Positions 21,001-45,000 of a stretch of DNA of 64,000 nt are shown here, one piece after another (the stretch's first letter is position 1; the number at the start of each line of letters is the position of its first letter). Source of the DNA: Eledone cirrhosa (taxonomy: Eukaryota); assembly GCA_964016885.1 (NCBI GenBank), contig OZ024741.1:247628001-247692000 (forward strand), read 5' to 3'. Under the pieces are notes generated by a model, which saw only the letters and a program-made list of their open reading frames with translations, searched no databases and was not told the DNA's origin. The translations under genes and the position numbers were made by a program.

Positions 21001-21036
21001 TCCTTGGACGGCTGGATATTATCTCCCCTTGGACGG
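1..21036 (+). repeat. Higher-order repeat copy 1 (21,036 bp; phase set arbitrarily at the window start)
   Basis: The window-start context recurs at 21037. Marker ORF 887 recurs at 21923 (+21036), and the rare CCCCCTGGAGATTT variant at ~1296 recurs at ~22332. Confidence 0.92.
15230..17060 (+). repeat. Diverged monomer domain within the HOR (second copy ~41700-43540)
   Basis: Dense private variants (TTGCACTGCTGG, GGACGACTGG, CCCCTCATTT, TAGCTGCTTGTAGG, TTACTAATT, TTGTATAC, TGATTATATT, TTAGCTCC, TATCATCCC) were seen only here and at +26477. Confidence 0.8.
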
Positions 21037-24000
21037 CTGGAAATTATCTCCCCTTGGACGGCTGGAAATTATCTCCCCTTGGATGGCTAGATATTACCTC
21101 CCCTTGGACGGCTGGAAATTATCTCCCCTTGATTTTTTTTACAAATTATCTCCCCCTGATTTTTTTTTACAAATTATCTCCCCCTGATTTTTTTTTACAA
21201 ATTATCTCCCCCTGATTTTTGTTTACAAATTATCTCCGCCTGATTTTTTTTTAAAAATTATCTCCCCTTGGACGGCTGGAAATTATCTCCCCTTGGACGG
21301 CTAGAAATTACCTCTCCTTGGACGGCTGAAAATTATCTCCCCTTGGACGGCTGGAAATTATCTCCCCTTGATTTTTTTACAAATTATCTCCCCCTGATTT
21401 TTTTTTTACAAATTATCTCCCCCTGATTTTTTTTTTACAAATTATCTCCCCCTGATTTTTTTACAAATTATCTCCCCCTAATTTTTTTTACAAATTATCT
21501 CCGCCTGATTTTTTTAAATATTATCTCTCCTTGGCTGGCGGGAAATTATCTCCCCTTGGACGGCTGGAAATTATCTCCCCATGGAAGGATGGAAATTATC
21601 TCCCCTTGGACGGCTGGAAATTATCTACCCCTGATTTTTTTTACAAATTATCTCCCCCTGATTTTTTTTACAAATTATCTCCCCCTGATTTTTTTTTACA
21701 AATTATCTACCCCTGATTTTTTTTACAAATTATCTCCCCCTGATTTTTTTTACAAATTATCTCCCCCTGATTTTTTTTACAAATTATCTCCACCTGATTT
21801 TTTTACAAATTATCTCCCCCTGATTTTTTTTACAAATTATCTTCCTCTGATTTTTTTACAAATTTTCTCCCCTTGGCTGGCTGGAAATTATCTCCCCTTG
21901 GACGGCTAGAAATTACCTCTCCTTGGATGGCTGGAAATTATCTCCCCTTGGACGGCTGGAAATTATCTCCCCTTGGACGGATAGATATTACCTCCCCTTG
22001 GACGGCTGGAAATTATCTCCCCTTGATTTTTTTACAAATTATCTCCCCCTGATTTATTTTACAAATCTGCCAATGATTTTTAAAAAAAAATTATCTCCCC
22101 TTCGCTGGCTGGAAATTATCTCCCCTTGGACGCTGGAAATTATAGCCCCTTGGAGGGCTGGAAATTATCTTCCCTTGGACGGCTGGAAATTATCTCCCCT
22201 TGATTTTTTTTACAAATTATCTCCCCCTGATTTTTTTTACAAATTATCTCCCCCTGATTTTTTTTACAAATTATCTACCCCTGATTTTTTTTACAAATTA
22301 TCTCCCTCTGATTTTTTTTACAAATTATCTCCCCCTGGAGATTTTTTTTTACAAATTATCTCCCCCTGATTTTTTTTACAAATTATCTCCCCCTGATTTT
22401 TTTTACAAATTATCTACCCCTGATTTTTTTTACAAATTATCTCCCCCTGATTTTTTTTTACAAATTATCTCCCCCTGATTTTTTTTACAAATTATCTCCC
22501 CCTGATTTTTTTACAAATTATCTCCCCCTGATTTTTTTTACAATCTCCGCCTGATTTTTTTAAAAATTATCTTCCCTTGGCTGGCTGGAAATTATCTCCC
22601 CTTGGACACTGGAAATTATAGCCCCTTGGAGGGCTGGAAATTATCTTCCCTTGGACGGCTGGAAATTATCTCCCCTTGATTTTTTTTACAAATTATCTCC
22701 GCCTGATTTTTTTTTACAAATTATCTCCCCCTGATTTTTTTTTACAAATTATCTACCCCTGATTTTTTTTTACAAATTATCTCCCCCTGATTTTTTTTAC
22801 AAATTATCTCCGCCTGATTTTTTTAAATATTATCTTCCCTTGGCTGGCGGGAAATTATCTCCCCTTGGACGGCTGGAAATTATCTACCCTTGATTTTCTT
22901 TTTACAAATTATCTTCCACTGATTTTTTTTACAAATTATCTCCACCTGATTTTTTTAAAAATTATCTCCCCTTGGAAGGCTGGAAATTATCTCCCCTTGG
23001 CTGGAAATTATCTCCCCTTGGACGGCTAGAAATTATCTCTCTTTGGACGGCTGGAAATTATCACCCCTTGAGTTTTTTACAAATTATCTCCCCCTGATTT
23101 TTTTTACAAATCTCCCAGTGATTTTAAAAAAAAAATTATCTCCCCTTCGCTGGCTGGAAATTATCTCCCCTTGGACGCTGGAAATTATAGCCCCTTGGAG
23201 GGCTGGAAATTATCTTCCCTTGGACGGCTGGAAATTATCTCCCCTTGATTTTTTTTACAAATTATCTCCCCCTGATTTTTTTTTACAAATTATCTCCCCC
23301 TGATTTTTTTTACAACTTATCTGCGCCTGATTTTTTTAAAAAAATTATCTCCCCTTGGACGGCTGGAAATTATCTCCCCTTGGACGGCTGGAAATTATCT
23401 CTCCTTGGACGGCTAGAATTTACCTCTCCTTGGACGGCTGAAAATTATCTCCCCTTGGACGGCTGGAAATTATCTCCCCTTGATTTTTTTTACAAATTAT
23501 CTCCCCCTGATTTTTTTTTACAAATTATCTCCCCCTGATTTTTTTACAAATTATCTCCCCTTGGCTGGCTGGAAATTATCTCCCCTTGGAGGCTGGAACT
23601 TATCTCCCCTTGGACGGCTAGAAATTACCTCTCCTTGGACGGCTGGAAAATATGTCTCCTTGGACGGCTGGATATTATCTCCCCTTGGACGGCTGGAAAT
23701 TATCTCCCCTTGGACGGCTGGAAATTATCTCCCCTTGGATGGCTAGATATTACCTCCCCTTGGACGGCTGGAAATTATCTCCCCTTGATTTTTTTTACAA
23801 ATTATCTCCCCCTGATTTTTTTTACAAATTATCTCCCCCTGATTTTTTTTTACAAATTATCTCCCCCTGATTTTTGTTTACAAATTATCTCCGCCTGATT
23901 TTTTTAAATATTATCTCTCCTTGGCTGGCGGGAAATTATCTCCCCTTGGACGGCTGGAAATTATCTCCCCTTGGAAGGATGGAAATTATCTCCCCTTGGA

Positions 24001-27000
24001 CGGCTGGAAATTATCTACCCCTGATTTTTTTTACAAATTATCTCCCCCTGATTTTTTTTACAAATTATCTCCCCCTGATTTTTTTTACAAATTATCTACC
24101 CCTGATTTCTTTTACAAATTATCTCCCCCTGATTTTTTTTACAAATTATCTCCCCCTGATTTTTTTTTTACAAATTATCTCCCCCTGATTTTTTTACAAA
24201 TTATCTCCCCCTGATTTTTTTTACAAATTATCTCCGCCTGATTTTTTTAAATATTATCTTCCCTTGGCTGGCTGGAAATTATCTCCCCTTGGACGGCTAG
24301 AAATTACCTCTCCTTGGACGGCTGGAAATTATCTCCCCTTGGACGGCTGGAAATTATCTCCCCTTGGACGGATAGATATTACCTCCCCTTGGACGGCTGG
24401 AAATTATCTCCCCTTGATTTTTTTACAAATTATCTCCCCCTGATTTATTTTACAAATCTCCCAATGATTTTTAAAAAAAAATTATCTCCCCTTCGCTGGC
24501 TGGAAATTATCTCCCCTTGGACGCTGGAAATTATCTCCCCTTGGACGGCTGGAAATTATCTCCCCTTGATTTTTTTTACAAATTATCTCCCCCTGATTTT
24601 TTTTTACAAATTATCTCCGCCTGATTTTTTTTACAAATTATCTCCCCCTGATTTTTTTTTACAAATTATCTCCCCCTGATTTTTTTACAAATTATCTCCC
24701 CCTGATTTTTTTTACAAATTATCTCCGCCTGATTTTTTAAAATATTATCTTCCCTTGGCTGGCGGGAAATTATCTCCCCTTGGACGGCTGGAAATTATCT
24801 GCCCTTGATTTTCTTTTTACAAATTATCTTCCACTGATTTTTTTTACAAATTATCTCCACCTGATTTTTTAAAAAATTATCTCCCCTTGGACGGCTGGAA
24901 ATTATCTCCCCTTGGACGGCTGGAAATTATCTCCCCTTGGACGGCTGGAAATTATCTCTCCTTGGACGGCTAGAATTTACCTCTCCTTGGACGGCTGAAA
25001 ATTATCTCCCCTTGGACGGCTGGAAATTATCTCCCCTTGGACGGCTGGAAATTATCTCCCCTTGGACGGCTGGAAATTATCTCTCCTTGGACGGCTAGAA
25101 ATTACCTCTCCTTGGACGGCTGGAAAATATGTCTCCTTGGACGGCTGGATATTATCTCCCCTTGGACGGCTGGAAATTATCTCCCCTTGGACGGCTGGAA
25201 ATTATCTCCCCTTGGATGGCTAGATATTACCTCCCCTTGGACGGCTGGAAATTATCTCCCCTTGATTTTTTTACAAATTATCTCCCCCTGATTTTTTTTT
25301 ACAAATTATCTCCCCCTGATTTTTTTTTACAAATTATCTCCCCCTGATTTTTGTTTACAAATTATCTCCGCCTGATTTTTTTTTTTAAATTATCTCCCCT
25401 TGGACGGCTGGAAATTATCTCCCCTTGGACGGCTAGAAATTACCTCTCCTTGGACGGCTGAAAATTATCTCCCCTTGGACGGCTGGAAATTATCTCCCCT
25501 TGATTTTTTTACAAATTATCTCCCCCTGATTTTTTTTTTACAAATTATCTCCCCCTGATTTTTTTTTACAAATTATCTACCCCTGATTTTTTTTTACAAA
25601 TTATCTCCCCCTGATTTTTTTTTACAAATTATCTACCCCTGATTTTTTTTACAAATTATCTCCCCCTGATTTTTTTTACAAATTATCTCCCCCTGATTTT
25701 TTTTTTACAAATTATCTCCCCCTGATTTTTTTACAAATTATCTCCCCTTGATTTTTTTTTACAACTTATCTGCGCCTGATTTTTTTTAAAAAATTATCTC
25801 CCCTTGGACGGCTGGAAATTATCTCCCCTTGGACGGCTGGAAATTATCTCTCCTTGGACGGCTAGAATTTACCTCTCCTTGGACGGCTGAAAATTATCTC
25901 CCCTTGGACGGCTGGGAATTATCTCCCCTTGATTTTTTTTACAAATTATCTCCTCCTGATTTTTTTTTACAAATTATCTCCCCCTGATTTTTTTTTACAA
26001 ATTATCTCCCCCTGATTTTTTTTTACAAATTATCTCCCCCTGATTTTTTTACAAATTATCTCCCCTTGGCTGGCTGGAAATTATCTCCCCTTGGAGCCTG
26101 GAACTTATGTCCCCTTGGACGGCTAGAAATTACCTCTCCTTGGACGGCTGGAAAATATGTCTCCTTGGACGGCTGGATATTATCTCCCCTTGGACGGCTG
26201 GAAATTATCTCCCCTTGGACGGCTGGAAATTATCTCCCCTTGGATGGCTAGATATTACCTCCCCTTGGACGGCTGGAAATTATCTCCCCTTGATTTTTTT
26301 TACAAATTATCTCCCCCTGATTTTTTTTTACAAATTATCTCCCCCTGATTTTTTTTTACAAATTATCTCCCCCTGATTTTTGTTTACAAATTATCTCCGC
26401 CTATTTTTTTTTAAAAATTATCTCCCCTTGGACGGCTGGAAATTATCTCCCCTTGGACGGCTAGAAATTACCTCTCCTTGGACGGCTGAAAATTATCTCC
26501 CCTTGGACGGCTGGAAATTATCTCCCCTTGATTTTTTTACAAATTATCTCCCCCTGATTTTTTTTTTACAAATTATCTCCTCCTGATTTTTTTTTTACAA
26601 ATTATCTCCCCCTGATTTTTTTACAAATTATCTCCCCCTAATTTTTTTTACAAATTATCTCCGCCTGATTTTTTTAAATATTATCTCTCCTTGGCTGGCG
26701 GGAAATTATCTCACCTTGGACGGCTGGAAATTATCTCCCCTTGGAAGAATGGAAATTATCTCCCCTTGGACGGCTGGAAATTATCTACCCCTGATTTTTT
26801 TTACAAATTATCTCCCCCTGATTTTTTTTACAAATCTCCCAGTGATTTAAAAAAAAAAATTATCTCCCCTTCGCTGGCTGGAAATTATCTCCCCTTGGAC
26901 GCTGGAAATTATAGCCCCTTGGAGGGCTGGAAATTATCTTCCCTTGGACGGCTGGAAATTATCTCCCCTTGATTTTTTTTACAAATTATCTCCCCCTGAT

Positions 27001-30000
27001 TTTTTTTTACAAATTATCTCCCCCTGATTTTTTTTACAACTTATCTGCGCCTGATTTTTTTAAAAAAATTATCTCCCCTTGGACGGCTGGAAATTATCTC
27101 CCCTTGGACGGCTGGAAATTATCTCTCCTTGGACGGCTAGAATTTACCTCTCCTTGGACGGCTGAAAATTATCTCCCCTTGGACGGCTGGAAATTATCTC
27201 CCCTTGATTTTTTTTACAAATTATCTCCCCCTGATTTTTTTTTACAAATTATCTCCCCCTGATTTTTTTACAAATTATCTCCCCTTGGCTGGCTGGAAAT
27301 TATCTCCCCTTGGAGGCTGGAACTTATCTCCCCTTGGACGGCTAGAAATTACCTCTCCTTGGACGGCTGGAAAATATGTCTCCTTGGACGGCTGGATATT
27401 ATCTCCCCTTGGACGGCTGGAAATTATCTCCCCTTGGACGGCTGGAAATTATCTCCCCTTGGATGGCTAGATATTACCTCCCCTTGGACGGCTGGAAATT
27501 ATCTCCCCTTGATTTTTTTTACAAATTATCTCCCCCTGATTTTTTTTACAAATTATCTCCCCCTGATTTTTTTTTACAAATTATCTCCCCCTGATTTTTG
27601 TTTACAAATTATCTCCGCCTGATTTTTTTAAATATTATCTCTCCTTGGCTGGCGGGAAATTATCTCCCCTTGGACGGCTGGAAATTATCTCCCCTTGGAA
27701 GGATGGAAATTATCTCCCCTTGGACGGCTGGAAATTATCTACCCCTGATTTTTTTTACAAATTATCTCCCCCTGATTTTTTTTACAAATTATCTCCCCCT
27801 GATTTTTTTTACAAATTATCTACCCCTGATTTCTTTTACAAATTATCTCCCCCTGATTTTTTTTACAAATTATCTCCCCCTGATTTTTTTTTTACAAATT
27901 ATCTCCCCCTGATTTTTTTACAAATTATCTCCCCCTGATTTTTTTTACAAATTATCTCCGCCTGATTTTTTTAAATATTATCTTCCCTTGGCTGGCTGGA
28001 AATTATCTCCCCTTGGACGGCTAGAAATTACCTCTCCTTGGACGGCTGGAAATTATCTCCCCTTGGACGGCTGGAAATTATCTCCCCTTGGACGGATAGA
28101 TATTACCTCCCCTTGGACGGCTGGAAATTATCTCCCCTTGATTTTTTTACAAATTATCTCCCCCTGATTTATTTTACAAATCTCCCAATGATTTTTAAAA
28201 AAAAATTATCTCCCCTTCGCTGGCTGGAAATTATCTCCCCTTGGACGCTGGAAATTATCTCCCCTTGGACGGCTGAAAATTATCTCCCCTTGGACGGCTG
28301 GAAATTATCTCCCCTTGATTTTTTTTACAAATTATCTCCCCCTGATTTTTTTTTACAAATTATCTCCGCCTGATTTTTTTTACAAATTATCTCCCCCTGA
28401 TTTTTTTTTACAAATTATCTCCCCCTGATTTTTTTACAAATTATCTCCCCCTGATTTTTTTTACAAATTATCTCCGCCTGATTTTTTAAAATATTATCTT
28501 CCCTTGGCTGGCGGGAAATTATCTCCCCTTGGACGGCTGGAAATTATCTGCCCTTGATTTTCTTTTTACAAATTATCTTCCACTGATTTTTTTTACAAAT
28601 TATCTCCACCTGATTTTTTAAAAAATTATCTCCCCTTGGACGGCTGGAAATTATCTCCCCTTGGACGGCTGGAAATTATCTCCCCTTGGACGGCTGGAAA
28701 TTATCTCTCCTTGGACGGCTAGAATTTACCTCTCCTTGGACGGCTGAAAATTATCTCCCCTTGGACGGCTGGAAATTATCTCCCCTTGGACGGCTGGAAA
28801 TTATCTCCCCTTGGACGGCTGGAAATTATCTCTCCTTGGACGGCTAGAAATTACCTCTCCTTGGACGGCTGGAAAATATGTCTCCTTGGACGGCTGGATA
28901 TTATCTCCCCTTGGACGGCTGGAAATTATCTCCCCTTGGACGGCTGGAAATTATCTCCCCTTGGATGGCTAGATATTACCTCCCCTTGGACGGCTGGAAA
29001 TTATCTCCCCTTGATTTTTTTACAAATTATCTCCCCCTGATTTTTTTTTACAAATTATCTCCCCCTGATTTTTTTTTACAAATTATCTCCCCCTGATTTT
29101 TGTTTACAAATTATCTCCGCCTGATTTTTTTTTTTAAATTATCTCCCCTTGGACGGCTGGAAATTATCTCCCCTTGGACGGCTAGAAATTACCTCTCCTT
29201 GGACGGCTGAAAATTATCTCCCCTTGGACGGCTGGAAATTATCTCCCCTTGATTTTTTTACAAATTATCTCCCCCTGATTTTTTTTTTACAAATTATCTC
29301 CCCCTGATTTTTTTTTACAAATTATCTACCCCTGATTTTTTTTTACAAATTATCTCCCCCTGATTTTTTTTTACAAATTATCTACCCCTGATTTTTTTTA
29401 CAAATTATCTCCCCCTGATTTTTTTTACAAATTATCTCCCCCTGATTTTTTTTTTACAAATTATCTCCCCCTGATTTTTTTACAAATTATCTCCCCTTGA
29501 TTTTTTTTTACAACTTATCTGCGCCTGATTTTTTTTAAAAAATTATCTCCCCTTGGACGGCTGGAAATTATCTCCCCTTGGACGGCTGGAAATTATCTCT
29601 CCTTGGACGGCTAGAATTTACCTCTCCTTGGACGGCTGAAAATTATCTCCCCTTGGACGGCTGGGAATTATCTCCCCTTGATTTTTTTTACAAATTATCT
29701 CCTCCTGATTTTTTTTTACAAATTATCTCCCCCTGATTTTTTTTTACAAATTATCTCCCCCTGATTTTTTTTTACAAATTATCTCCCCCTGATTTTTTTA
29801 CAAATTATCTCCCCTTGGCTGGCTGGAAATTATCTCCCCTTGGAGCCTGGAACTTATGTCCCCTTGGACGGCTAGAAATTACCTCTCCTTGGACGGCTGG
29901 AAAATATGTCTCCTTGGACGGCTGGATATTATCTCCCCTTGGACGGCTGGAAATTATCTCCCCTTGGACGGCTGGAAATTATCTCCCCTTGGATGGCTAG

Positions 30001-33000
30001 ATATTACCTCCCCTTGGACGGCTGGAAATTATCTCCCCTTGATTTTTTTTACAAATTATCTCCCCCTGATTTTTTTTTACAAATTATCTCCCCCTGATTT
30101 TTTTTTACAAATTATCTCCCCCTGATTTTTGTTTACAAATTATCTCCGCCTATTTTTTTTTAAAAATTATCTCCCCTTGGACGGCTGGAAATTATCTCCC
30201 CTTGGACGGCTAGAAATTACCTCTCCTTGGACGGCTGAAAATTATCTCCCCTTGGACGGCTGGAAATTATCTCCCCTTGATTTTTTTACAAATTATCTCC
30301 CCCTGATTTTTTTTTTACAAATTATCTCCCCCTGATTTTTTTTTTACAAATTATCTCCCCCTGATTTTTTTACAAATTATCTCCCCCTAATTTTTTTTAC
30401 AAATTATCTCCGCCTGATTTTTTTAAATATTATCTCTCCTTGGCTGGCGGGAAATTATCTCACCTTGGACGGCTGGAAATTATCTCCCCTTGGAAGAATG
30501 GAAATTATCTCCCCTTGGACGGCTGGAAATTATCTACCCCTGATTTTTTTTACAAATTATCTCCCCCTGATTTTTTTTACAAATTATCTCCCCCTGATTT
30601 TTTTTTACAAATTATCTACCCCTGATTTTTTTTACAAATTATCTCCCCCTGATTTTTTTTACAAATTATCTCCCCCTGATTTTTTTTTACAAATTATCTA
30701 CCCCTGATTTTTTTTACAAATTATCTCCCCCTGATTTTTTTTTACAAATTATCTCCCCCTGATTTTTTTACAAATTATCTCCCCCTGATTTTTTTTACAA
30801 TCTCCGCCTGATTTTTTTAAAAATTATCTTCTCTTGGCTGGCTGGAAATTATCTCCCCTTGGACACTGGAAATTATAGCCACTTGGAGGGCTGGAAATTA
30901 TCTTCCCTTGGACGGCTGGAAATTATCTCCCCTTGATTTTTTTTACAAATTATCTCCGCCTGATTTTTTTTTACAAATTATCTCCCCCTGATTTTTTTTT
31001 ACAAATTATCTACCCCTGATTTTTTTTTACAAATTATCTCCCCCTGATTTTTTTTACAAATTATCTCCCCCTGATTTCTCTTTTACAAATTATCTCCCCC
31101 TGATTTTTTTACAAATTATCTCCCCCTGATTTTTTTTACAAATTATCTCCGCCTGATTTTTTTAAATATTATCTTCCCTTGGCTGGCGGGAAATTATCTC
31201 CCCTTGGACGGCTGGAAATTATCTACCCTTGATTTTCTTTTTACAAATTATCTTCCACTGATTTTTTTTACAAATTATCTCCACCTGATTTTTTAAAAAA
31301 TTATCTCCCCTTGGAAGGCTGGAAATTATCTCCCCTTGGCTGGAAATTATCTCCCCTTGGACGGCTAGAAATTATCTCTCTTTGGACGGCTGGAAATTAT
31401 CACCCCTTGAGTTTTTTACAAATTATCTCCCCCTGATTTTTTTACAAATTATCTCCCCCTGATTTTTTTTACAAATTATCTCCGCCTGATTTTTTTAAAT
31501 ATTATCTTCCCTTGGCTGGCGGGAAATTATCTCCCCTTGGACGGCTGAAAATTATCTCCCCTTGGACGGCTGGAAATTATCTCCCCTTGATTTTTTTTAC
31601 AAATTATCTCCCCCTGATTTTTTTTTACAAATTATCTCCCCCTGATTTTTTTACAAATTATCTCCCCTTGGACGCTGGAAATTATAGCCCCTTGGAGGGC
31701 TGGAAATTATCTTCCCTTGGACGGCTGCAAATTATCTCCCCTTGATTTTTTTTACAAATTATCTCCCCCTGATTTTTTTTACAAATTATCTCCCCCTGAT
31801 TTTTTTTACAAATTATCTACCCCTAATTTTTTTTACAAATTATCTCCCCCTGATTTTTTTTTACAAATTATCTCCCCCTGATTTTTTTTTACAAATTATC
31901 TCCCCCTGATTTTTTTACAAATTATCTCCCCCTGATTTTTTTTACAATCTCCGCCTGATTTTTTTAAAAATTATCTTCTCTTGGCTGGCTGGAAATTATC
32001 TCCCCTTGGACACTGGAAATTATAGCCACTTGGAGGGCTGGAAATTATCTTCCCTTGGACGGCTGGAAATTATCACCCCTTGATTTTTTTTACAAATTAT
32101 CTCCGCCTGATTTTTTTTTACAAATTATCTCCCCCTGATTTTTTTTTACAAATTATCTAACCCTGATTTTTTTTTACAAATTATCTCCCCCTGATTTTTT
32201 TTACAAATTATCTCCCCCTGATTTCTCTTTTACAAATTATCTCCCCCTGATTTTTTTACAAATTATCTCCCCCTGATTTTTTTTACAAATTATCTCCGCC
32301 TGATTTTTTTAAATATTATCTTCCCTTGGCTGGCGGGAAATTATCTCCCCTTGGACGGCTGGAAATTATCTACCCTTGATTTTCTTTTTACAAATTATCT
32401 TCCACTGATTTTTTTTACAAATTATCTCCACCTGATTTTTTAAAAAATTATCTCCCCTTGGAAGGCTGGAAATTATCTCCCCTTGGCTGGAAATTATCTC
32501 CCCTTGGACGGCTAGAAATTATCTCTCTTTGGACGGCTGGAAATTATCACCCCTTGAGCTTTTTACAAATTATCTCCCCCTGATTTTTTTTACAAATCTC
32601 CCTGTGATTTTTTAAAAAAAATTATCTCCCCTTCGCTGGCTGGAAATTATCTCCCCTTGGACGCTGGAAATTATAGCCCCTTGGAGGGCTGGAAATTATC
32701 TTCCCTTGGACGGCTGGAAATTATCTCCCCTTGATTTTTTTTACAAATTATCTCCCCCTGATTTTTTTTTACAAATTATCTCCCCCTGATTTTTTTTACA
32801 ACTTATCTGCGCCTGATTTTTTTTTAAAAATTATCTCCCCTTGGACGGCTGGAAATTATCTCCCCTTGGACTGCTGGAAATTATCTCTCCTTGGACGGCT
32901 AGAATTTACCTCTCCTTGGACGGCTGAAAATTATCTCCCCTTGGACGGCTGGAAATTATCTCCCCTTGATTTTTTTTACAAATTATCTCCCCCTGATTTT

Positions 33001-36000
33001 TTTTTACAAATTATCTCCCCCTGATTTTTTTTTACAAATTATCTCCCCCTGATTTTTTTTTACAAATTATCTACCCCTGATTTTCTTTTACAAATTATCT
33101 CCCCTTGGCTGGCTGGAAATTATCTCCCCTTGGAGGCTGGAACTTATCTCCCCTTGGACGGCTAGAAATTACCTCTCCTTGGTCGGCTGGAAAATATGTC
33201 TCCTTGGACGGCTGGATATTATCTCCCCTTGGACGGCTGGAAATTATCTCCCCTTGGACGGCTGAAAATTATCTCCCCTTGATTTTTTTTACAAATTATC
33301 TCCCCCTGATTTTTTTTTACAAATTATCTCCCCCTGATTTTTGTTTACAAATTATCTCCGCCTGATTTTTTAAAAAAATTATCTCCCCTTGGACGGATAG
33401 AAATTACCTCTCCTTGGACGGCTGAAAATTATCTCCCCTTTGACGGCTGGAAATTATCTCCCCTTGATTTTTTTACAAATTATCTCCCCCTGATTTTTTT
33501 TTTACAAATTATCTCCCCCTGATTTTTTTTTACAAATTATCTACCCCTGATTTTTTTTTACAAATTATCTCCCCCTGATTTTTTTTACAAATTATCTCCC
33601 CCTGATTTTTTTTTACAAATTATCTCCCCCTGATTTTTTTACAAATTATCTCCCCCTGATTTTTTTTACAAATTATCTCCGCCTGATTTTTTTAAATATT
33701 ATCTCTCCTTGGCTGGCGGGAAATTATCTCCCCTTGGACGGCTGGAAATTATCTCCCCTTGGAAGGATGGAAATTATCTCCCCTTGGACGGCTGGAAATT
33801 ATCTACCCCTGATTTTTTTTACAAATTATCTCCCCCTGATTTTTTTTACAAATTATCTCCCCCTGATTTTTTTTACAAATTATCTACCCCTGATTTTTTT
33901 TACAAATTATCTCCCCCTGATTTTTTTTACAAATTATCTCCCCCTGATTTTTTTTTTACAAATTATCTCACCCTGATTTTTTTACAAATTATCTCCCCCT
34001 GATTTTTTTTACAAATTATCTCCGCCTGATTTTTTTAAATATTATCTTCCCTTGGCTGGCGGGAAATTATCTCCCCTTGAAGGGCTGAAAATTATCTCCC
34101 CTTGGACGGCTGGAAATTATCTCCCCTTGATTTTTTTTACAAATTATCTCCCCCTGATTTTTTTTACAAATTATCTCCCCCTGATTTTTTTTACAAATTA
34201 TCTCCCCCTGATTTTTTTTTACAAATTATCTGCCGCTGATTTTTTTTACAAATTATCTCCCCCTGATTTTTTTACAAATTATCTCCCCTTGGCTGGCTGG
34301 AAATTACCTCCCCTTGGAGGCTGGAATTTATCTCCCCTTGGACGGCTAGAAATTACCTCTCCTTGGACGGCTGGAAAATATGTCTCCTTGGACGGCTGGA
34401 TATTATCTCCCCTTGGACGGCTGGAAATTATCTCCCCTTGGACGGCTGGAAATTATCTCCCCTTGGACGGATAGATATTACCTCCCCTTGGACGGCTGGA
34501 AATTATCTCCCCTTGGACGGCTGGAAATTATCTCCCCATGGACGGCTGGAAATTATCTCCCCTTGGACGGCTAGAAATTATCTCTCCTTGGACGGCTGAA
34601 AATTATCTCCCCTTGGACGGCTGGAAATTATCTCCCCTTGGACGGCTGGAAATTATCTCTCCTTGGACGGCTAGAATTTACCTCTCCTTGGACGGCTGAA
34701 AATTATCTCCCCTTGGACGGCTGGAAATTATCTCCCCTTGATTTTTTTTACAAATTATCTCCCCCTGATTTTTTTTTACAAATTATCTCCCCCTGATTTT
34801 TTTTTACAAATTATATCCCCCTGATTTTTTTTTACAAATTATCTACCCCTGATTTTTTTTTACAAATTATCTCCCCTTGGCTGGCTGGAAATTATCTCCC
34901 CTTGGAGGCTGGAACTTATCTCCCCTTGGACGGCTAGAAATTACCTCTCCTTGGTCGGCTGGAAAATATGTCTCCTTGGACGGCTGGATATTATCTCCCC
35001 TTGGACGGCTGGAAATTATCTCCCCTTGGACGGCTGAAAATTATCTCCCCTTGATTTTTTTTACAAATTATCTCCCCCTGATTTTTTTTTACAAATTATC
35101 TCCCCCTGATTTTTGTTTACAAATTATCTCCGCCTGATTTTTTAAAAAAATTATCTCCCCTTGGACGGATAGAAATTACCTCTCCTTGGACGGCTGAAAA
35201 TTATCTCCCCTTTGACGGCTGGAAATTATCTCCCCTTGATTTTTTTACAAATTATCTCCCCCTGATTTTTTTTTTACAAATTATCTCCCCCTGATTTTTT
35301 TTTACAAATTATCTACCCCTGATTTTTTTTTACAAATTATCTCCCCCTGATTTTTTTTACAAATTATCTCCCCCTGATTTTTTTTTACAAATTATCTCCC
35401 CCTGATTTTTTTACAAATTATCTCCCCCTGATTTTTTTTACAAATTATCTCCGCCTGATTTTTTTAAATATTATCTCTCCTTGGCTGGCGGGAAATTATC
35501 TCCCCTTGGACGGCTGGAAATTATCTCCCCTTGGAAGGATGGAAATTATCTCCCCTTGGACGGCTGGAAATTATCTACCCCTGATTTTTTTTACAAATTA
35601 TCTCCCCCTGATTTTTTTTACAAATTATCTCCCCCTGATTTTTTTTACAAATTATCTACCCCTGATTTTTTTTACAAATTATCTCCCCCTGATTTTTTTT
35701 ACAAATTATCTCCCCCTGATTTTTTTTTTACAAATTATCTCACCCTGATTTTTTTACAAATTATCTCCCCCTGATTTTTTTTACAAATTATCTCCGCCTG
35801 ATTTTTTTAAATATTATCTTCCCTTGGCTGGCGGGAAATTATCTCCCCTTGAAGGGCTGAAAATTATCTCCCCTTGGACGGCTGGAAATTATCTCCCCTT
35901 GATTTTTTTTACAAATTATCTCCCCCTGATTTTTTTTTACAAATTATCTCCCCCTGATTTTTTTTACAAATTATCTCCCCCTGATTTTTTTTTACAAATT

Positions 36001-39000
36001 ATCTGCCGCTGATTTTTTTTACAAATTATCTCCCCCTGATTTTTTTACAAATTATCTCCCCTTGGCTGGCTGGAAATTACCTCCCCTTGGAGGCTGGAAT
36101 TTATCTCCCCTTGGACGGCTAGAAATTACCTCTCCTTGGACGGCTGGAAAATATGTCTCCTTGGACGGCTGGATATTATCTCCCCTTGGACGGCTGGAAA
36201 TTATCTCCCCTTGGACGGCTGGAAATTATCTCCCCTTGGACGGATAGATATTACCTCCCCTTGGACGGCTGGAAATTATCTCCCCTTGGACGGCTGGAAA
36301 TTATCTCCCCATGGACGGCTGGAAATTATCTCCCCTTGGACGGCTAGAAATTATCTCTCCTTGGACGGCTGAAAATTATCTCCCCTTGGACGGCTGGAAA
36401 TTATCTCCCGTTGGACGGCTGGAAATTATCTCGCCTTGGACGGCTAGAATTTACCTCTCCTTGGACGGCTGAAAATTATCTCCCCTTGGACGGCTGGAAA
36501 TTATCTCCCCTTGATTTTTTTTACAAATTATCTCCCCCTGATTCTTTTTTACAAATTATCTCCCCCTGATTTTTTTTTACAAATTATCTCCCCCTGATTT
36601 TTTTTTACAAATTATCTCCCCCGGATTTTTTTTTACGAATTATCTCCCCCTGATTTTTTTTTACAAATTATCTCCCCCTGATTTTTTTTTAGAAATTATC
36701 TCCCCCTGATTTTTTTACAAATTATCTCCCCTTGGCTGGCTGGAAATTATCTCCCCTAGGAGGCTGGAACTTATCTCCCCTTGGACGGCTAGAAATTACC
36801 TCTCTTTGGACGGCTGGAAAATATGTCTCCTTGGACGGCTGGATATTATCTCCCCTTGGACGGCTGGAAATTATCTCCCCTTGGACGGCTGGAAATTATC
36901 TCCCCTTGGATGGCTAGATATTACCTCCCTTTGGACGGCTGGAAATTATCTCCCCTTGATTTTTTTTACAAATTATCTCCCCCTGATTTTTTTTTACAAA
37001 TTATCTCCCCCGATTTTTTTTTACAAATTATCTCCCCCTGATTTTTTTTTACAAATTATCTCCCCCTGATTTTTGTTTACAAATTATCTCCCCTTGGACG
37101 GCTGGAAATTATCTCCCCTTGGACGGCTAGAAATTACCTCTCCTTGGACGGCTGAAAATTATCCTCCCTTGGACGGCTGGAAATTATCTCCCCTTGATTT
37201 TTTTACAAATTATCTCCCCCTGATTTTTTTTTTACAAATTATCTCACCCTGATTTTTTTTACAAATTATCTACCCCTGATTTTTTTTTACAAATTATCTC
37301 CCCCTGATTTTTTTTACAAATTATCTCCCACTGATTTTTTTTTTACAAATTATCTCCCCCTGATTTTTTTACAAATTATCTCCCCCTGATTTTTTTTACA
37401 AATTATATCCGCCTGATTTTTTTAAATATTATCTCTCCTTGGCTGGCGGGAAATTATCTCCCCTTGGACGGCTGGAAATTATCTCCCCTTGGAAGGATGG
37501 AAATTATCTCCCCTTGGACGGCTGGAAATTATCTACCCCTGATTTTTTTTACAAATTATCTCCCCCTGATTTTTTTTACAAATTATCTCCCCCTGATTTT
37601 TTTTTACAAATTATCTCCCCCTGATTTTTTTACAAATTATCTCCCCCTGATTTTTTTTACAAATTATCTCCGCCTGATTTTTTAAAATATTATCTTACCT
37701 TGGCTGGCGGGAAATTATATCCCCTTGGACGGCTGAAAATTATCTCCCCTTGGACGGCTGGAAATTATCTCCCCTTGATTTTTTTTACAAATTATCTCCC
37801 CCTGATTTTTTTTTACAAATTATCTCCCCCTGATTTTTTTTACAAATTATCTCCCCCCTGATTTTTTTACAAATTATCTCCCCTTGGCTGGCTGGAAATT
37901 ATCTCCCCTTGGAGGCTGGAACTTATCTCCCCTTGGACGGCTAGAAATTACCTCTCCTTGGACGGCTGGAAAATATGTCTCCTTGGACGGCTGGATATTA
38001 TCTCCCCTTGGACGGCTGGAAATTATCTCCCCTTGGACGGCTGGAAATTATCTCCCCTTGGATGGCTAGATATTACCTCCCCTTGGACGGCTGGAAATTA
38101 TCTCCCTTTGATTTTTTTTACAAATTATCTCCCCCTGATTTTTTTTTACAAATTATCTCCCCCTGATTTTTTTTTACAAATTATCTCCCCCTGATTTTTG
38201 TTTACAAATTATCTCCGCCTGATTTTTTTTTAAAAATTATCTCCCCTTGGACGGCTGGAAATTATCTCCCCTTGGACGGCTAGAAATTACCTCTCCTTGG
38301 ACGGCTGAAAATTATCTCCCCTTGGACGGCTGGAAATTATCTCCCCTTGATTTTTTTACAAATTATCTCCCCCTGATTTTTTTTTTACAAATTATCTCCC
38401 CCTGATTTTTTTTTACAAATTATCTACCCCTGATTTTTTTTTACAAATTATCTCCCCCTGATTTTTTTTACAAATTATCTCCCCCTGATTTTTTTTTACA
38501 AATTATCTCCCCCTGATTTTTTTACAAATTATCTCCCCCTGATTTTTTTTACAAATTGTCTCCGCCTGATTTTTTTAAATATTATCTCTCCTTGGCTGGC
38601 GGGAAATTATCTCCCCTTGGACGGCTGGAAATTATCTCCCTTTGGAAGGATGGAAATTATCTCCCCTTGGACGGCTAGAAATTATCTCTCTTTGGACGGC
38701 TGGAAATTATCACCCCTTGAGTTTTTTACAAATTATCTCCCCCTGATTTTTTTTACAAATCTCCCAGTGATTTTTAAAAAAAAATTATCTCCCCTTCGCT
38801 GGCTGGAAATTATCTCCCCTTGGACGCTGGAAATTATAGCACCTTGGAGGGCTGGAAATTATCTTCCCTTGGACGGCTGGAAATTATCTCCCCTTGATTT
38901 TTTTTACAAATTATCTCCCCCTGATTTTTTTTTACAAATTATCTCCCCCTGATTTTTTTTTACAACTTATCTGCGCCTGATTTTTTTAAAAAAATTATCT

Positions 39001-42000
39001 CCCCTTGGACGGCTGGAAATTATCTCCCCTTGGACGGCTGGAAATTATCTCTCCTTGGACGGCTAGAATTTACCTCTCCTTGGACGGCTGAAAATTATCT
39101 CCCCTTGGACGGCTGGAAATTATCTCCCCTTGATTTTTTTTACAAATTATCTCCCCCTGATTTTTTTTTACAAATTATCTCCCCCTGATTTTTTTTACAA
39201 ATTATCTCCCCCTGATTTTTTTTTACAAATTATCTCCCCCTGATTTTTTTTACAAATTATCTCCCCCTGATTTTCTTACAAATTATCTCCCCTTGGCTGG
39301 CTGGAAATTATCTCCCCTTGGACGGCTGGAAATTATCTCCCATTGGATGGCTAGATATTACCTCCCCTTGGACGGCTGGAAATTATCTCCCCTTGATTTT
39401 TTTTACAAATTATCTCCCCCTGATTTTTTTTACAAATTATCTCCCCCTGATTTTTTTTTACAAATTATCTCCCCCTGATTTTTGTTTACAAATTATCTCC
39501 GCCTGATTTTTTTTTAAAAATTATCTCCCCTTGGACGGCTGGAAATTATCTCCCCCTGGACGGCTAGAAATTACCTCTCCTTGGACGGCTGAAAATTATC
39601 TCCCCTTGGACGGCTGGAAATTATCTCCCCTTGATTTTTTTACAAATTATCTCCCCCTGATTTTTTTTTTACAAATTATCTCCCCCTGATTTTTTTTTTA
39701 CAAATTATCTCCCCCTGATTTTTTTACAAATTATCTCCCCCTAATTTTTTTTACAAATTATCTCCGCCTGATTTTTTTAAATATTATCTCTCCTTGGCTG
39801 GCGGGAAATTATCTCCCCTTGGACGGCTGGAAATTATCTCCCCTTGGAAGGATGGAAATTATCTCCCCTTGGACGGCTGGAAATTATCTACCCCTGATTT
39901 TTTTTACAAATTATCTCCCCCTGATTTTTTTTACAAATTATCTCCCCCTGATTTTTTTTTACAAATTATCTACCCCTGATTTTTTTTACAAATTATCTCC
40001 CCCTGATTTTTTTTACAAATTATCTCCCCCTGATTTTTTTTTACAAATTATCTACCCCTGATTTTTTTTACAAATTATCTCCCCCTGATTTTTTTTTACA
40101 AATTATCTCCCCCTGATTTTTTTACAAATTATCTCCCCCTGATTTTTTTTACAATCTCCGCCTGATTTTTTTAAAAATTATCTTCTCTTGGCTGGCTGGA
40201 AATTATCTCCCCTTGGACACTGGAAATTATAGCCACTTGGAGGGCTGGAAATTATCTTCCCTTGGACGGCTGGAAATTATCTCCCCTTGATTTTTTTTAC
40301 AAATTATCTCCGCCTGATTTTTTTTTACAAATTATCTCCCCCTGATTTTTTTTTACAAATTATCTACCCCTGATTTTTTTTTACAAATTATCTCCCCCTG
40401 ATTTTTTTTACAAATTATCTCCCCCTGATTTCTCTTTTACAAATTATCTCCCCCTGATTTTTTTACAAATTATCTCCCCCTGATTTTTTTTACAAATTAT
40501 CTCCGCCTGATTTTTTTAAATATTATCTTCCCTTGGCTGGCGGGAAATTATCTCCCCTTGGACGGCTGGAAATTATCTACCCTTGATTTTCTTTTTACAA
40601 ATTATCTTCCACTGATTTTTTTTACAAATTATCTCCACCTGATTTTTTAAAAAATTATCTCCCATTGGAAGGCTGGAAATTATCTCCCCTTGGACGGCTG
40701 GAAATTATCTCTCCTTGGACGGCTGGAAATTATCTCTCCTTGGACGGCTAGAATTTACCTCTCCTTGGACGGCTGAAAATTATCTCCCCTTGGACGGCTG
40801 GAAATTACCTCCCCTTGGACGGCTGGAAATTATCTCCCTTGGACGGCTGGAAATTATCTCCCCTTGGATGGCTAGATATTACCTCCCCTTGGACGGCTGG
40901 AAATTATCTCTCCTTGGACGGCTAGAATTTACCTCTCCTTGGACGGCTGAAAATTATCTCCCCTTGGACGGCTGGAAATTACCTCCCCTTGATTTTTTTT
41001 ACAAATTATCTCCCCCTGATTTTTTTTTACAAATTATCTCCCCCTGATTTTTTTTTACAAATTATCTCCCCCTGATTTTTTTTTACAAATTATCTCCCCC
41101 TGATTTTTTTTACAAATTATCTCCCCTTGGCTGGCTGGAAATTATCTCCCCTTGGAGGCTGGAACTTATCTCCCCTTGGACGGCTAGAAATTACCTCTCC
41201 TTGGACGGCTGGAAAATATGTCTCCTTGGACGGCTGGAAATTATCTCCCCTTGGACGGCTGGAAATTATCTCCCTTGGACGGCTGGAAATTATCTCCCCT
41301 TGGATGGCTAGATATTACCTCCCCTTGGACGGCTGGAAATTATCTCCCCTTGATTTTTTTTAGAAATTATCTCCCCCTGATTTTTTTTTACAAATTATCT
41401 CCCCCTGATTTTTTATTACAAATTATCTCCCCCTGATTTTTGTTTACAAATTATCTCCGCCTGATTTTTTTTTTAAAATTATCTCCCCTTGGACGGCTGG
41501 AAATTATCTCCCCTTGGACGGCTAGAAATTACCTCTCCTTGGACGGCTGAAAATTATCTCCACTTGGACGGCTGGAAATTATCTACCCCTGATTTTTTTT
41601 ACAAATTATCTCCCCCTGATTTTTTTTACAAATTATCTCCCCCTGATTTTTTTTTACAAATTATCTACCCCTGATTTTTTTTACAAATTATCTCCCCCTG
41701 ATTTTTTTACAAATTGTCTCCCCCTGATTTTTTTTTACAAATTATCTCCCCCTGATTGTTTTACAAATTATCTCCCCCTGATTTTTTTTACAAATTATCT
41801 CCGCCTGATTTTTTTAAATATTATCTTCCCTTGGCTGGCGGGAAATTATCTCCCCTTGGAAGGATGGAAATTATCTCCCCTTGGACGGCTGGAAATTATC
41901 TCCCCTTGCACTGCTGGAAATTATCTCCCCTTGGACGACTGGAAATTATCTGCCCTTGATTTTGTTTTTACAAATTATCTTCCCCTCATTTTTTTTACAA

Positions 42001-45000
42001 ATTATCTCCACCTGATTTTTTAAAAAATTATCTCCCCTTGGACGGCTGGAAATTATCTCCCCTTGGCTGGAAATTATCTCCCCTTGGACGGCTAGAAATT
42101 ATCTCTCTTTGGACGGCTGGAAATTATCTCCCCTTGATTTTTTTTACAAATTATCTCCCCCTGATTTTTTTTACAAATCTCCCAGTGATTTTTAAAAAAA
42201 AATTATCTTCCTTTCGCTGGTTGGAAATTATCTCCCCTTGGACGCTGGAAATTATAGCCCCTTGGAGGGCTGGAAATTATCTTCCCTTGGACGGCTGGAA
42301 ATTATCTCCCCTTGATTTTTTTACATTTTATCTCCCCCTGATTTTTTTTTACAAATTATCTCCCCGATTTTTTTTTACAAATTATCTCCGCCTGATTTTT
42401 TTAAAAAAATTATCTTCCCTTGGACGGCTGGAAATTATCTCCCCTTGGACGGCTGGAAATTATCTCGCCTTGGACGGCTAGAAATTACCTCTCCTTGGAC
42501 GGCTGAAAATTATCTCCCCTTGGACGCTGGAAATTATAGCCCCTTGGAGGGCTGGAAATTATGTCCCCTTGATTTTTTTTACAAATTATCTCCCCCTGAT
42601 TTTTTTTTACAAATTATCTCCCCCTGATTTTTTTTTTACAAATTATCTCCCCCTGATTTTTTTTTACAAATTATCTCCCCCTGATTTTTTTACAAATTAT
42701 CTCCCCTTGGCTGGCTGTAAATTATCTCCCCTTGGAGGCTGGAATTTATCTCCCCTTGGACGGCTGGAAATAATCTCCCCTTGGACGGCTAGAAATTACC
42801 TCTCCTTGGACGGCTGGAAATTATCTCCCCTTGAACGGCTGGAAATTATCTCCCCTTGGACGGCTGGAAATTATCTCCCCTTGGACGGCTGGAAATTATC
42901 TCCCCTTGGACGGCTAGAAATTACCTCTCCTTGGACGGCTGGAAATTATCTCCACTTGGACGGCTGGAAATTATCTCCCCTTCGCTGGCTGGAAATCATC
43001 TCCCTTTGGACGGCTGGAAATTATAGCTGCTTGTAGGGCTGGAAATTATCTCCCCTTGGACGGCTGGAAATTATCTCCCCTTGATTTATTTTACTAATTA
43101 TCTCCCCCTGATTTTTTTTACAAATTATCTCCGCCTGATTTTTTTTTAAAAATTATCTCCCCTTGGCTGGATGGAAATTATCTCCCCTTGGACGGCTGGA
43201 AATTATCTCCCCTTGGAGCCTAGAAATTACCTCTCCTTGGACAGCTGTAAATTATCTCCCCTTGGACGGCTGGAAATTATCTCGCCTTGGACGGCTGGAA
43301 ATTATCTCCCCTTGATTTTGTATACAAATTATCTCCCCCTGATTTTTTTTTACAAATTATCTGCCCCTGATTATATTTTTACAAATTAGCTCCGCCTGAT
43401 TTTTTAAAAAAATTATCTCCCCTTGGACGGCTGGAAATTATCTCCCCTTGGACGGCTGGAAATTATCTCCCCTTGAACGGCTAGAAATTACCTCTCCTTG
43501 GAGGGCTGGAAATTATCATCCCTTGGACGGCTGGAAATTATCTCCCCTTGATTTTTTTTACAAATTATCTCCCCTTGGACGGCTGGAAATTATCTCCCCT
43601 TGGACGGCTGGAAATTATCTCCCCTTGGACGGCTAGAAATTACCTCTCCTTGGACGGCTGAAAATTATCTCCCCTTGGACGGCTGGAAATTATCTCCCCT
43701 TGATTTTTTTTTACAAATTATCTCCCCCTGATTTTTTTTACAAATTATCTACCCCTGATTTTTTTTACAAATTATCTCCCCCTGATTTTTTTTACAAATT
43801 ATCTCCCCCTGATTTTTTTTACAAATTATCTCCCCCTGATTTTTTTTTACAAATTATCTCCCCCTGATTTTTTTACAAATTATCTCCCCCTGTTTTTTTT
43901 ACAAATTATCTCCGCCTGATTTTTTTAAATATTATCTTCCCTTGGCTGGCGGGAAATTATCTCCCCTTGGACGGCTGAAAATTATCTCCCCTTGGACGGC
44001 TGGAAATTATCTCCCCTTGATTTTTTTTACAAATTATCTCCCCCTGATTTTTTCTTACAAATTATCTCCCCCTGATTTTTTTACAAATTATCTCCCCCTG
44101 ATTTTTTTTTACAAATTGTCTCCCCCTGATTTTTTTTACAAATTATCTCCCTCTGATTTTTTTACAAATTATCTCCCCTTGGCTGGCTGGAAATTATCTC
44201 CCCTTGGACGGCTAGAAATTACCTCTCCTTGGACGGCTGGAAAATATGTCTCCTTGGACGGCTGGATATTATCTCCCCTTGGACGGCTGGAAATTATCTC
44301 CCCTTGGACGGCTGGAAATTATCTCCCCTTGATTTTTTTACAAATTATCTCCCCCTGATTTATTTTACAAATCTCCCAATTTAAAAAAAAAAATTATCTC
44401 CCCTTCGCTGGCTGGAAATTATCTCCCCTTGGACGCTGGAAATTATAGCCCCTTGGAGGGCTGGAAATTATCTTCCCTTGGACGGCTGGAAATTATCTCC
44501 CCTTGATTTTTTTTACAAATTATCTCCCCCTGATTTTTTTTACAAATTATCTCCCCCTGATTTTTTTTACAAATTATCTACCCCTGATTTTTTTTACAAA
44601 TTATCTCCCCCTGATTTTTTTTTACAAATTATCTCCCCCTGATTTTTTTTTACAAATTATCTCCCCCTGATTTTTTTACAAATTATCTCCCCCTGATTTT
44701 TTTTACAATCTCCGCCTGATTTTTTTAAAAATTATCTTCCCTTGGCTGGCTGGAAATTATCTCCCCTTGGACACTGGAAATTATAGCCCCTTGGAGGGCT
44801 GGAAATTATCTTCCCTTGGACGGCTGGAAATTATCTCCCCTTGATTTTTTTTACAAATTATCTCCGCCTGATTTTTTTTTACAAATTATCTCCCCCTGAT
44901 TTTTTTTTACACATTATCTACCCCTGATTTTTTTTTACAAATTATCTCCCCCTGATTTTTTTTACAAATTATCTCCCCCTGATTTTTCTTTTACAAATTA

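What the first reader, a model, noticed from the sequence alone, without database searches (positions are those of the whole stretch)
34599..34636. The apparent 1.77-kb repeat is the scar of a 22.75-kb out-of-register duplication
Seen: left of this point, copy 2 shares variants with copy 3 and not copy 1 (CCCCATGGAAGG ~21578/~48055, the 82-bp deletion, GGCTGCAAATT ~31725/~54478, GGACTGCTGG ~32868/~55621, TTTTCTTTTAC ~33081/~55834). Right of it, copy 2 shares variants with copy 1 and not copy 3 (TTATATCCCC ~34811/~8333, TTTAGAAATT ~36688/~10210, T9A5 ~38223/~11746). The switch falls within a 38-bp A-monomer homology equal to 8121-8158 and 57353-57390. I saw only a handful of differences between the two 22.75-kb copies (e.g. 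14341, 20240, 38641, 46441). Inference: one recent unequal exchange or break-induced replication event, misaligned by 1,772 bp, created a new repeat period using only ~38 bp of perfect homology.
Basis: partly seen in the sequence, partly recalled or inferred. Interest (0 to 1): 0.7.

Follow-up and report, generated by a model that had tools for sequence, protein, structure and literature searches.

The report
Young duplication inside a satellite array
This 38-base stretch is the seam between two nearly identical 23-kilobase blocks of repetitive satellite DNA, likely left by one recent mis-registered DNA repair event, and dozens of similar seams lie in the same array, so it is an ordinary example of how such arrays grow.

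Summary
The window is all satellite, built of a 25-bp and a 27-28-bp monomer, inside an array of at least 2.6 Mb. Variant sharing flips at 34599-34636: 11 of 12 informative sites to the left side with copy 3, and 5 of 5 SNPs to the right with copy 1. A blind copying path over 864 kb switches at exactly that interval, and the junction occurs once in the 3-Gb assembly. It is best read as the seam of one tandem duplication of 22,754 bp; the 1.77-kb repeat is its by-product. Three corrections. (1) The copies are now 26.5 and 22.8 kb, because the first holds a nested 3.75-kb duplication. (2) 'Only 38 bp' understates the homology: the donor sites stay 98.5% alike for 262 bp, including 154 bp perfect. 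(3) No new period spread: there are two copies, in a patchwork of nested duplications, not a regular HOR. Among 38 clean duplication junctions in 1.46 Mb the median exact overlap is 39.5 bp, so this one is typical. It matches known out-of-register repair in plant and human satellites. BIR versus unequal exchange and read support are untested.

The parts
34599..34636 (+). Duplication junction: 38-bp interval in which the sequence passes from the end of the duplicated segment to its start
   Evidence: Left flank matches 57390 and upstream (offset 22,754/22,753), right flank matches 8121 and downstream (offset 26,478); spanning 121-mer occurs once in G000
8121..34636 (+). First copy (S1) of the duplicated segment, 26,516 bp including a nested 3.75-kb duplication
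34599..57390 (+). Second copy (S2), 22,792 bp (period 22,754 bp, about 820 monomers by a rough parse)
8121..8382 (+). Upstream donor site: 262 bp with 4 mismatches to the downstream site (8159, 8182, 8337, 8367); perfect runs of 38 and 154 bp; unlike sequence (B monomer against A monomer) to its left
   Evidence: 2 edits in 150 bp right of the interval, 43 in 150 bp left
57353..57614 (+). Downstream donor site, partner of 8121-8382
32827..36371 (+). Apparent 1,772-bp tandem repeat (32827-34598, 34599-36371): by-product of the long duplication; left half has copy-3 alleles, right half copy-1 alleles
   Evidence: Three SNPs and one T-run indel between the halves
23073..30584 (+). Nested tandem duplication of 3,749 bp in S1 only; junction 26797-26835 (39-bp overlap); its first copy carries a 25-bp deletion near 24552 and a SNP at 26581
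1..14405 (+).
   Evidence: about 0.95 differences per kb against 0.13-0.43 for S1/S2
56248..60852 (+). Three copies of a 1,664-bp block, from two further local duplications whose junctions lie right of the S2 end
1..64000 (+). Satellite array of two monomer types (A, 25 bp; B, 27-28 bp with a T run) in runs of mostly 1-9 monomers, all on one strand
   Evidence: no inverted 20-mers; no Rfam match

Best explanation
34599-34636 is the single-copy seam between two near-identical blocks of a multi-megabase satellite array, likely made by one recent homology-directed repair event, most likely a break-induced replication restart, that would have copied 22,754 bp twice. Shown: the junction joins the end of segment S (57390 side) to its start (8121 side); both copies carry private changes; the two donor sites are in monomer phase and share 262 bp at 98.5%. 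Inferred: a broken end paired with one of about a dozen equivalent monomer blocks, one that lies 1,773 bp from the in-register position of an older 21-kb duplicate, so the product shows a 1.77-kb repeat that was never copied locally. Inferred: the 3.75-kb duplication in the first copy came later. Inferred: the switch sits at the left edge of the shared tract because a non-matching end was trimmed back to where homology begins, or because mismatches in the paired tract were resolved to the 8121 alleles. The same process is common in this array. Odds: single-event history about 0.85; within it BIR-type restart slightly ahead of reciprocal exchange, on grounds from the literature and not from this sequence.
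For: Variant switch 11 of 12 left, 5 of 5 right. Blind path and an automated tandem-duplication finder both return 34599-34636 with offsets 22,754/26,478. Junction unique in 864 kb and in the genome. Alleles that are unique in 864 kb and common in the other state lie on both copies: S1 at 20240, 26581 and the 25-bp deletion; S2 at 38641, 46441, 49633; 14341/40818 is unique on both sides. Array survey: 26 clean unique junctions of 34 unique (40 clusters) in 864 kb, and 12 of 24 unique (33 clusters, 32 evaluated) in a held-out 600 kb; exact overlap >=30 bp in 16 of 26 and 9 of 12 against 21% and 26% for random in-phase same-type monomer pairs (binomial p 1.1e-5 and 4.7e-4); pooled median 39.5 bp. 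Passages of 10.1101/2025.06.02.657473 report the same class of repeat-preserving kb-scale tandem duplications arising in Arabidopsis mutation-accumulation lines, raised in rtel1 and called consistent with BIR.
Against: One assembled haplotype cannot show whether a reciprocal deletion product was made, so BIR is not separated from unequal exchange. Junctions show no consistent polarity of flanking homology (left less alike in 11 of 16, then 4 of 9). 10 of 26 and 3 of 12 junctions have overlaps under 30 bp, several under 10, so long homology is favoured but not required. The null does not copy the detection filter, and later conversion can change interval lengths. No reads were examined. The order of the 22.75-kb and 3.75-kb events is by parsimony only: the nested copies differ at 2 sites in 3.7 kb, no fewer than the rate of the large pair.
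Confidence: 0.5

Rival explanations
1. The same single duplication arose by reciprocal unequal exchange between sister chromatids or homologues (Smith model). If between homologues, the S1/S2 differences and the 3.75-kb block may predate the event.
For: It gives an identical junction and variant switch. The 3.75-kb nested copies are no more alike than S1 and S2, as expected if they were inherited from one parent chromosome. Model as described in passages of PMC8997354.
Against: Nothing in this sequence argues against it. The literature passages seen lean to BIR for short-range satellite duplications. A crossover might be expected in the 154-bp perfect run more often than in the 38-bp edge run (38 of 262 bp), a weak point.
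Confidence: 0.3
2. Assembly artefact: a haplotype switch or false duplication placed two allelic versions in tandem.
For: S1/S2 differences (6 SNPs, 3 small indels, one 3.75-kb block) could be heterozygosity. No read support was seen; one search listed no long raw reads.
Against: The junction is a novel adjacency found once in the genome between sites whose left flanks are unlike (43 edits in 150 bp); by general knowledge overlap assemblers do not join on 38 bp, so the adjacency should be in reads. No N in 864 kb. Dozens of like junctions exist, some recopied by later duplications (6 of 40 and 8 of 32 clusters flagged as copies), which an assembler error would not produce.
Confidence: 0.1
3. 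Two steps: an in-register 21-kb duplication plus a separate local 1.77-kb tandem duplication, with gene conversion sorting the alleles.
For: Local duplications of 1.2-2 kb are common here, and the automated finder also lists a 1,773-bp candidate at this place.
Against: It needs three extra conversions (32872/34644, 33043/34815, 33085/34857) all in the direction that mimics one junction; edit cost 4 against 0.
Confidence: 0.07
4. Microhomology-mediated end joining or MMBIR that happened to fall on like monomers.
For: A 22.7-kb adjacent duplication in maize centromere 10 has a 5-nt match and was ascribed to alternative end joining (passages of PMC4806543). Some junctions in this array have overlaps under 10 bp.
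Against: Here the overlap is 38 bp with 262 bp of 98.5% identity; only 6.5% of random in-phase pairs reach 38 bp (12% for same-type monomers).
Confidence: 0.03

Closest known systems
Repeat-preserving tandem duplications in Arabidopsis CEN178 arrays (bioRxiv 10.1101/2025.06.02.657473; passages)
   Same: Adjacent duplications of whole monomers, chimeric unit at the breakpoint, homology-directed origin, build-up of homogenised blocks.
   Different: There 1-31 units of 178 bp (mean 1,870 bp) seen de novo; here about 820 short monomers (22.75 kb), inferred from one assembly; centromere status untested.
Out-of-register unequal exchange (Smith 1976) and out-of-register BIR (Rice, bioRxiv 10.1101/731471; review PMC8997354; passages)
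   Same: Mis-registered pairing in a tandem array duplicates the intervening block and can make a new higher-order unit.
   Different: Those models shift by whole HOR units in regular alpha-satellite arrays; this array has no fixed HOR and the new period has not been amplified.
Maize CEN10 adjacent duplications and local CentC HORs (PMC4806543, PMC13011684; passages)
   Same: Local higher-order patterns that are single adjacent duplications; a 22.7-kb tandem duplication of like size.
   Different: The maize 22.7-kb event used a 5-nt match in retrotransposon sequence; this one uses 38 bp exact within 262 bp near-exact satellite.

Membership tests
Homology-directed, out-of-register tandem duplication in a satellite array | Two adjacent near-identical copies whose junction joins segment end to segment start | tested here: met
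Homology-directed, out-of-register tandem duplication in a satellite array | Monomer phase kept; junction lies in sequence shared by both donor sites, no inserted bases | tested here: met
   38-bp shared interval, edit cost 0
Homology-directed, out-of-register tandem duplication in a satellite array | One switch of diagnostic variants at the junction | tested here: met
   11 of 12 left, 5 of 5 right
Homology-directed, out-of-register tandem duplication in a satellite array | Present on one real chromosome (read support) | not testable with these tools
   No long raw reads listed; 31-mers cannot span the two diagnostic edges of a 38-bp interval
Regular higher-order repeat (alpha-satellite type) variant | A fixed multi-monomer unit repeated many times in tandem | tested here: not met
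   Junction single-copy; closest-copy offsets vary from about 1 kb to over 100 kb
Microhomology-mediated joining (MMEJ/MMBIR) | Junction match of about 1-15 bp (range as used in PMC12350158) without longer flanking homology | tested here: not met
   38 bp exact within 262 bp at 98.5%
Break-induced replication (as against reciprocal exchange) | Non-reciprocal gain with no matching deletion product | not testable with these tools
   Single haplotype
Break-induced replication (as against reciprocal exchange) | Directional signature at junctions across the array | tested here: inconclusive
   Left flank less alike in 11 of 16 and 4 of 9 junctions
Centromeric satellite | CENP-A/CENH3 occupancy | not testable with these tools
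   Only position (about 245.6-251 Mb of a 416-Mb contig) and size are known

The most novel reading that the evidence does not exclude
Because its monomers are only 25-28 bp and of two types, this array keeps a base-resolved fossil record of its own growth, and that record shows a rule: kilobase-to-100-kb duplications choose partners with about 30 bp or more of exact match (25 of 38 junctions against about 21-26% by chance) and often resolve at the edge of a longer near-perfect tract. That would be a homology requirement between end joining and classical ectopic recombination, measurable in one genome, and would make the unequal-exchange versus BIR question testable by junction statistics.
Probability: 0.2. 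Interest if true: 0.55.

Novelty: new member of a known kind. Interest (0 to 1): 0.27.

Why it matters
The single event is ordinary: out-of-register duplication is the standard account of satellite growth and has been watched arising in Arabidopsis. Its use is as a clean worked case that an apparent short repeat can be the by-product of a much longer duplication, which period-finding tools would misread, and as one entry in a catalogue of about 38 resolvable junctions in this array. With reads from several individuals that catalogue could give homology lengths and gain-to-loss ratios for satellite turnover in a 3-Gb eukaryote genome.

Tried and rejected
1) A narrow 33-48-bp mode of junction overlaps seen in a hand-picked set (13 of 26 evaluated; 7 of 33 candidates had no anchor) did not replicate: with a fixed rule 9 of 26 fell at 30-49 bp in the first region but 1 of 12 in the held-out region. 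Rejected; only the excess at >=30 bp stands. 2) Polarity of flanking homology as a sign of fork direction: none. 3) Gain versus loss bias: for large events the polarising rule is unreliable (it called the 3.7-kb duplication a deletion), so it was dropped; for monomer-scale indels 24 deletions, 4 insertions and 15 uncalled of 43, with insertions under-called by design, so no bias is claimed. 4) Pairing guided by the 21-kb repeat: the used site is the nearest of 13 out-of-register equivalents to the in-register site within 50 kb, but the finding was picked for that very feature; not counted as support. 5) First chain-based finders missed this junction or read it as a 1,772-bp duplication, because the 154-bp run extends the chain; replaced by the copying path and edit-distance method. 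6) A second near-full BLAST hit at 98% does not carry the junction. 7) Rfam: no match in the window or three flanking samples. 9) Earlier findings near this place: none. Four paper searches were on mechanism; I did not search for this satellite by name, so I make no claim that it is undescribed. No supplements were read; those of the bioRxiv papers are closed and may hold breakpoint-homology tables that bear on the novel case.

Full report
Setting. The window is G000:C2:247,628,001-247,692,000, on a 416-Mb contig of a 3.0-Gb genome. It is satellite from end to end, built of a 25-bp A monomer and a 27-28-bp B monomer with a T run, which share their first dozen bases and come in runs of mostly 1-9. 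All copies are on one strand. Samples show the satellite in this orientation from 245.6 to 248.28 Mb, and reversed at 248.5-250.3 Mb and again at 251.0 Mb.

Observation. Exact matches lay out the structure: 8121-26835 matches 34599-53337 at offsets 26,477-26,502, and 26881-34636 matches 49634-57390 at 22,753-22,754. The interval 34599-34636 is identical to 8121-8158 and to 57353-57390. Left of it copy 2 sides with copy 3 at 11 of 12 informative sites; the odd one is an allele found only in copy 3. Right of it copy 2 sides with copy 1 at 5 of 5 SNPs. As a blind check I computed, over 864 kb centred on the window, the cheapest path that copies each position from elsewhere in the array; it changes from a source 22,754 bp downstream to one 26,478 bp upstream at exactly 34599-34636. 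An automated tandem-duplication finder returns the same pair. A 121-bp pattern over the junction has one match in the genome.

What it is. The junction joins the end of a segment to its start, the mark of a tandem duplication with period 22,754 bp. The new duplication is 1,773 bp longer than that older period as it now stands (20,981 bp), so it leaves 1,772 bp of related sequence twice in a row, with copy-3 alleles in the left half and copy-1 alleles in the right. Reading that as a local duplication costs 4 edits near the junction against 0.

Corrections. First, the two copies are 26,516 and 22,792 bp, because the first holds a 3,749-bp duplication with its own 39-bp junction at 26797-26835. 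Apart from it the copies differ by 6 SNPs, two 1-bp T-run indels and one 25-bp monomer, with private alleles on both copies. That the small duplication came later is parsimony, not proof. Second, 38 bp is the resolution of the switch, not the homology on offer. The 38-mer is near-consensus (103 copies in the window), and the donor sites go on matching for 262 bp with 4 mismatches, including 154 bp without one; to the left they are unlike at once, B monomer against A. Third, 14 of 73 sites with that 38-mer within 50 kb upstream have equally good flanking homology, so no pairing through the 21-kb repeat is needed. Fourth, the period has not spread, and the array is not a regular HOR: closest-copy offsets run from about 1 kb to over 100 kb. 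By differences per kb this pair is young but not the youngest: its two parts rank 6th and 16th of 35 segments of 5 kb or more.

How ordinary. With one fixed rule (one chain covering at least 95% of both copies, junction placed by edit distance, copies of one junction merged, at most 3 edits near it) I found 26 clean junctions among 34 unique in the 864 kb, and 12 among 24 unique in a held-out 600 kb from the reversed part of the array. This junction is not in that set, as its nested duplication breaks the chain; its 1,773-bp misreading was dropped at cost 4. Exact overlaps range from 0 to 354 bp, pooled median 39.5. Overlaps of 30 bp or more make up 16 of 26 and 9 of 12, against 21% and 26% for random in-phase pairs of same-type monomers and 11% and 14% for any type. 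So homology guides these events, and 38 bp is typical. A tighter 33-48-bp mode seen in a hand-picked list failed in the held-out region (1 of 12). Among junctions of 30 bp or more, 5 of 16 and 5 of 9 have one near-identical 100-bp flank, against 14% and 19% in the null, with no fixed side. The null does not mimic the detection filter, and the two regions share 46% of their 100-mers, so they are not fully independent.

Mechanism. Shown: in-phase joining within shared sequence, no inserted bases, one switch. Inferred: a broken end paired with a like block 22.75 kb away and the stretch between was copied twice. I put BIR-type restart at 0.5 and reciprocal unequal exchange at 0.3. The sequence cannot separate them; the lean comes from passages read on Arabidopsis mutation-accumulation lines (56 large indels, all keeping monomer phase, 35 insertions and 21 deletions, rates raised in rtel1; 10.1101/2025.06.02.657473), on maize (PMC13011684) and from a review (PMC8997354). 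The position of the switch at the very edge of the shared tract fits trimming of a non-matching 3' end, a step recalled from general knowledge of repair and not tested. Misassembly gets 0.1: the adjacency is new, short and free of gaps, and like junctions have been recopied by later duplications, but no reads were seen.

Known kin and novelty. The event works like the out-of-register duplications of the Smith and Rice models (passages) and like those seen in Arabidopsis and maize (passages). It fails the tests for a regular HOR variant and for microhomology joining. For human structural variants, passages of PMC12350158 report no inflection in breakpoint-homology length, which cautions against a sharp threshold here. 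All six papers were seen as passages only. Verdict: real, well read by the first stage in its main point, and an ordinary member of a known class; interest 0.27.

Noticed in passing
G000:C2 about 245.5-251.0 Mb (L042-L060, L161-L177): The satellite forms at least two multi-megabase blocks in opposite orientation (+ at 245.6-248.28 Mb, - at 248.5-250.3 Mb, - again at 251.0 Mb), with about 0.2 Mb of other DNA between them. An AT-rich 12-13-bp repeat was sampled near three block edges (245.5, 248.3, 250.6 Mb).
   Followed up: partly
L041 (G000:C2:245,000,001-245,002,000): A separate 227-bp tandem repeat, 48% GC, 98% identity between units; no Rfam match.
   Followed up: partly
window 56248-60852; also near -328038, 129453, 191925, 202733, 289872 in window coordinates: Local repeats of 1,656-1,666 bp recur through the array; some are copies of one old junction, others have different junctions, which suggests reuse of a sub-block spacing.
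   Followed up: partly
864 kb around the window (L001-L040, L061-L100): Larger and younger near-identical segments exist, e.g. 17 kb with 1 difference at offset 15.9 kb, 12 kb with none at offset 30 kb, and segments at offsets of 60-116 kb. Those without differences are the best candidates for assembly checks.
   Followed up: no
young duplicate pairs in the 864 kb: Monomer-scale indels (25-109 bp) are mostly derived deletions where they could be polarised: 24 deletions, 4 insertions, 15 uncalled; insertions are under-called by the method.
   Followed up: partly
864-kb region, clean junction set: 16 of 26 junctions lie wholly in B (T-run) monomers, but only 2 of 12 in the held-out region, where longer mixed intervals dominate.
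   Followed up: partly
   Followed up: no
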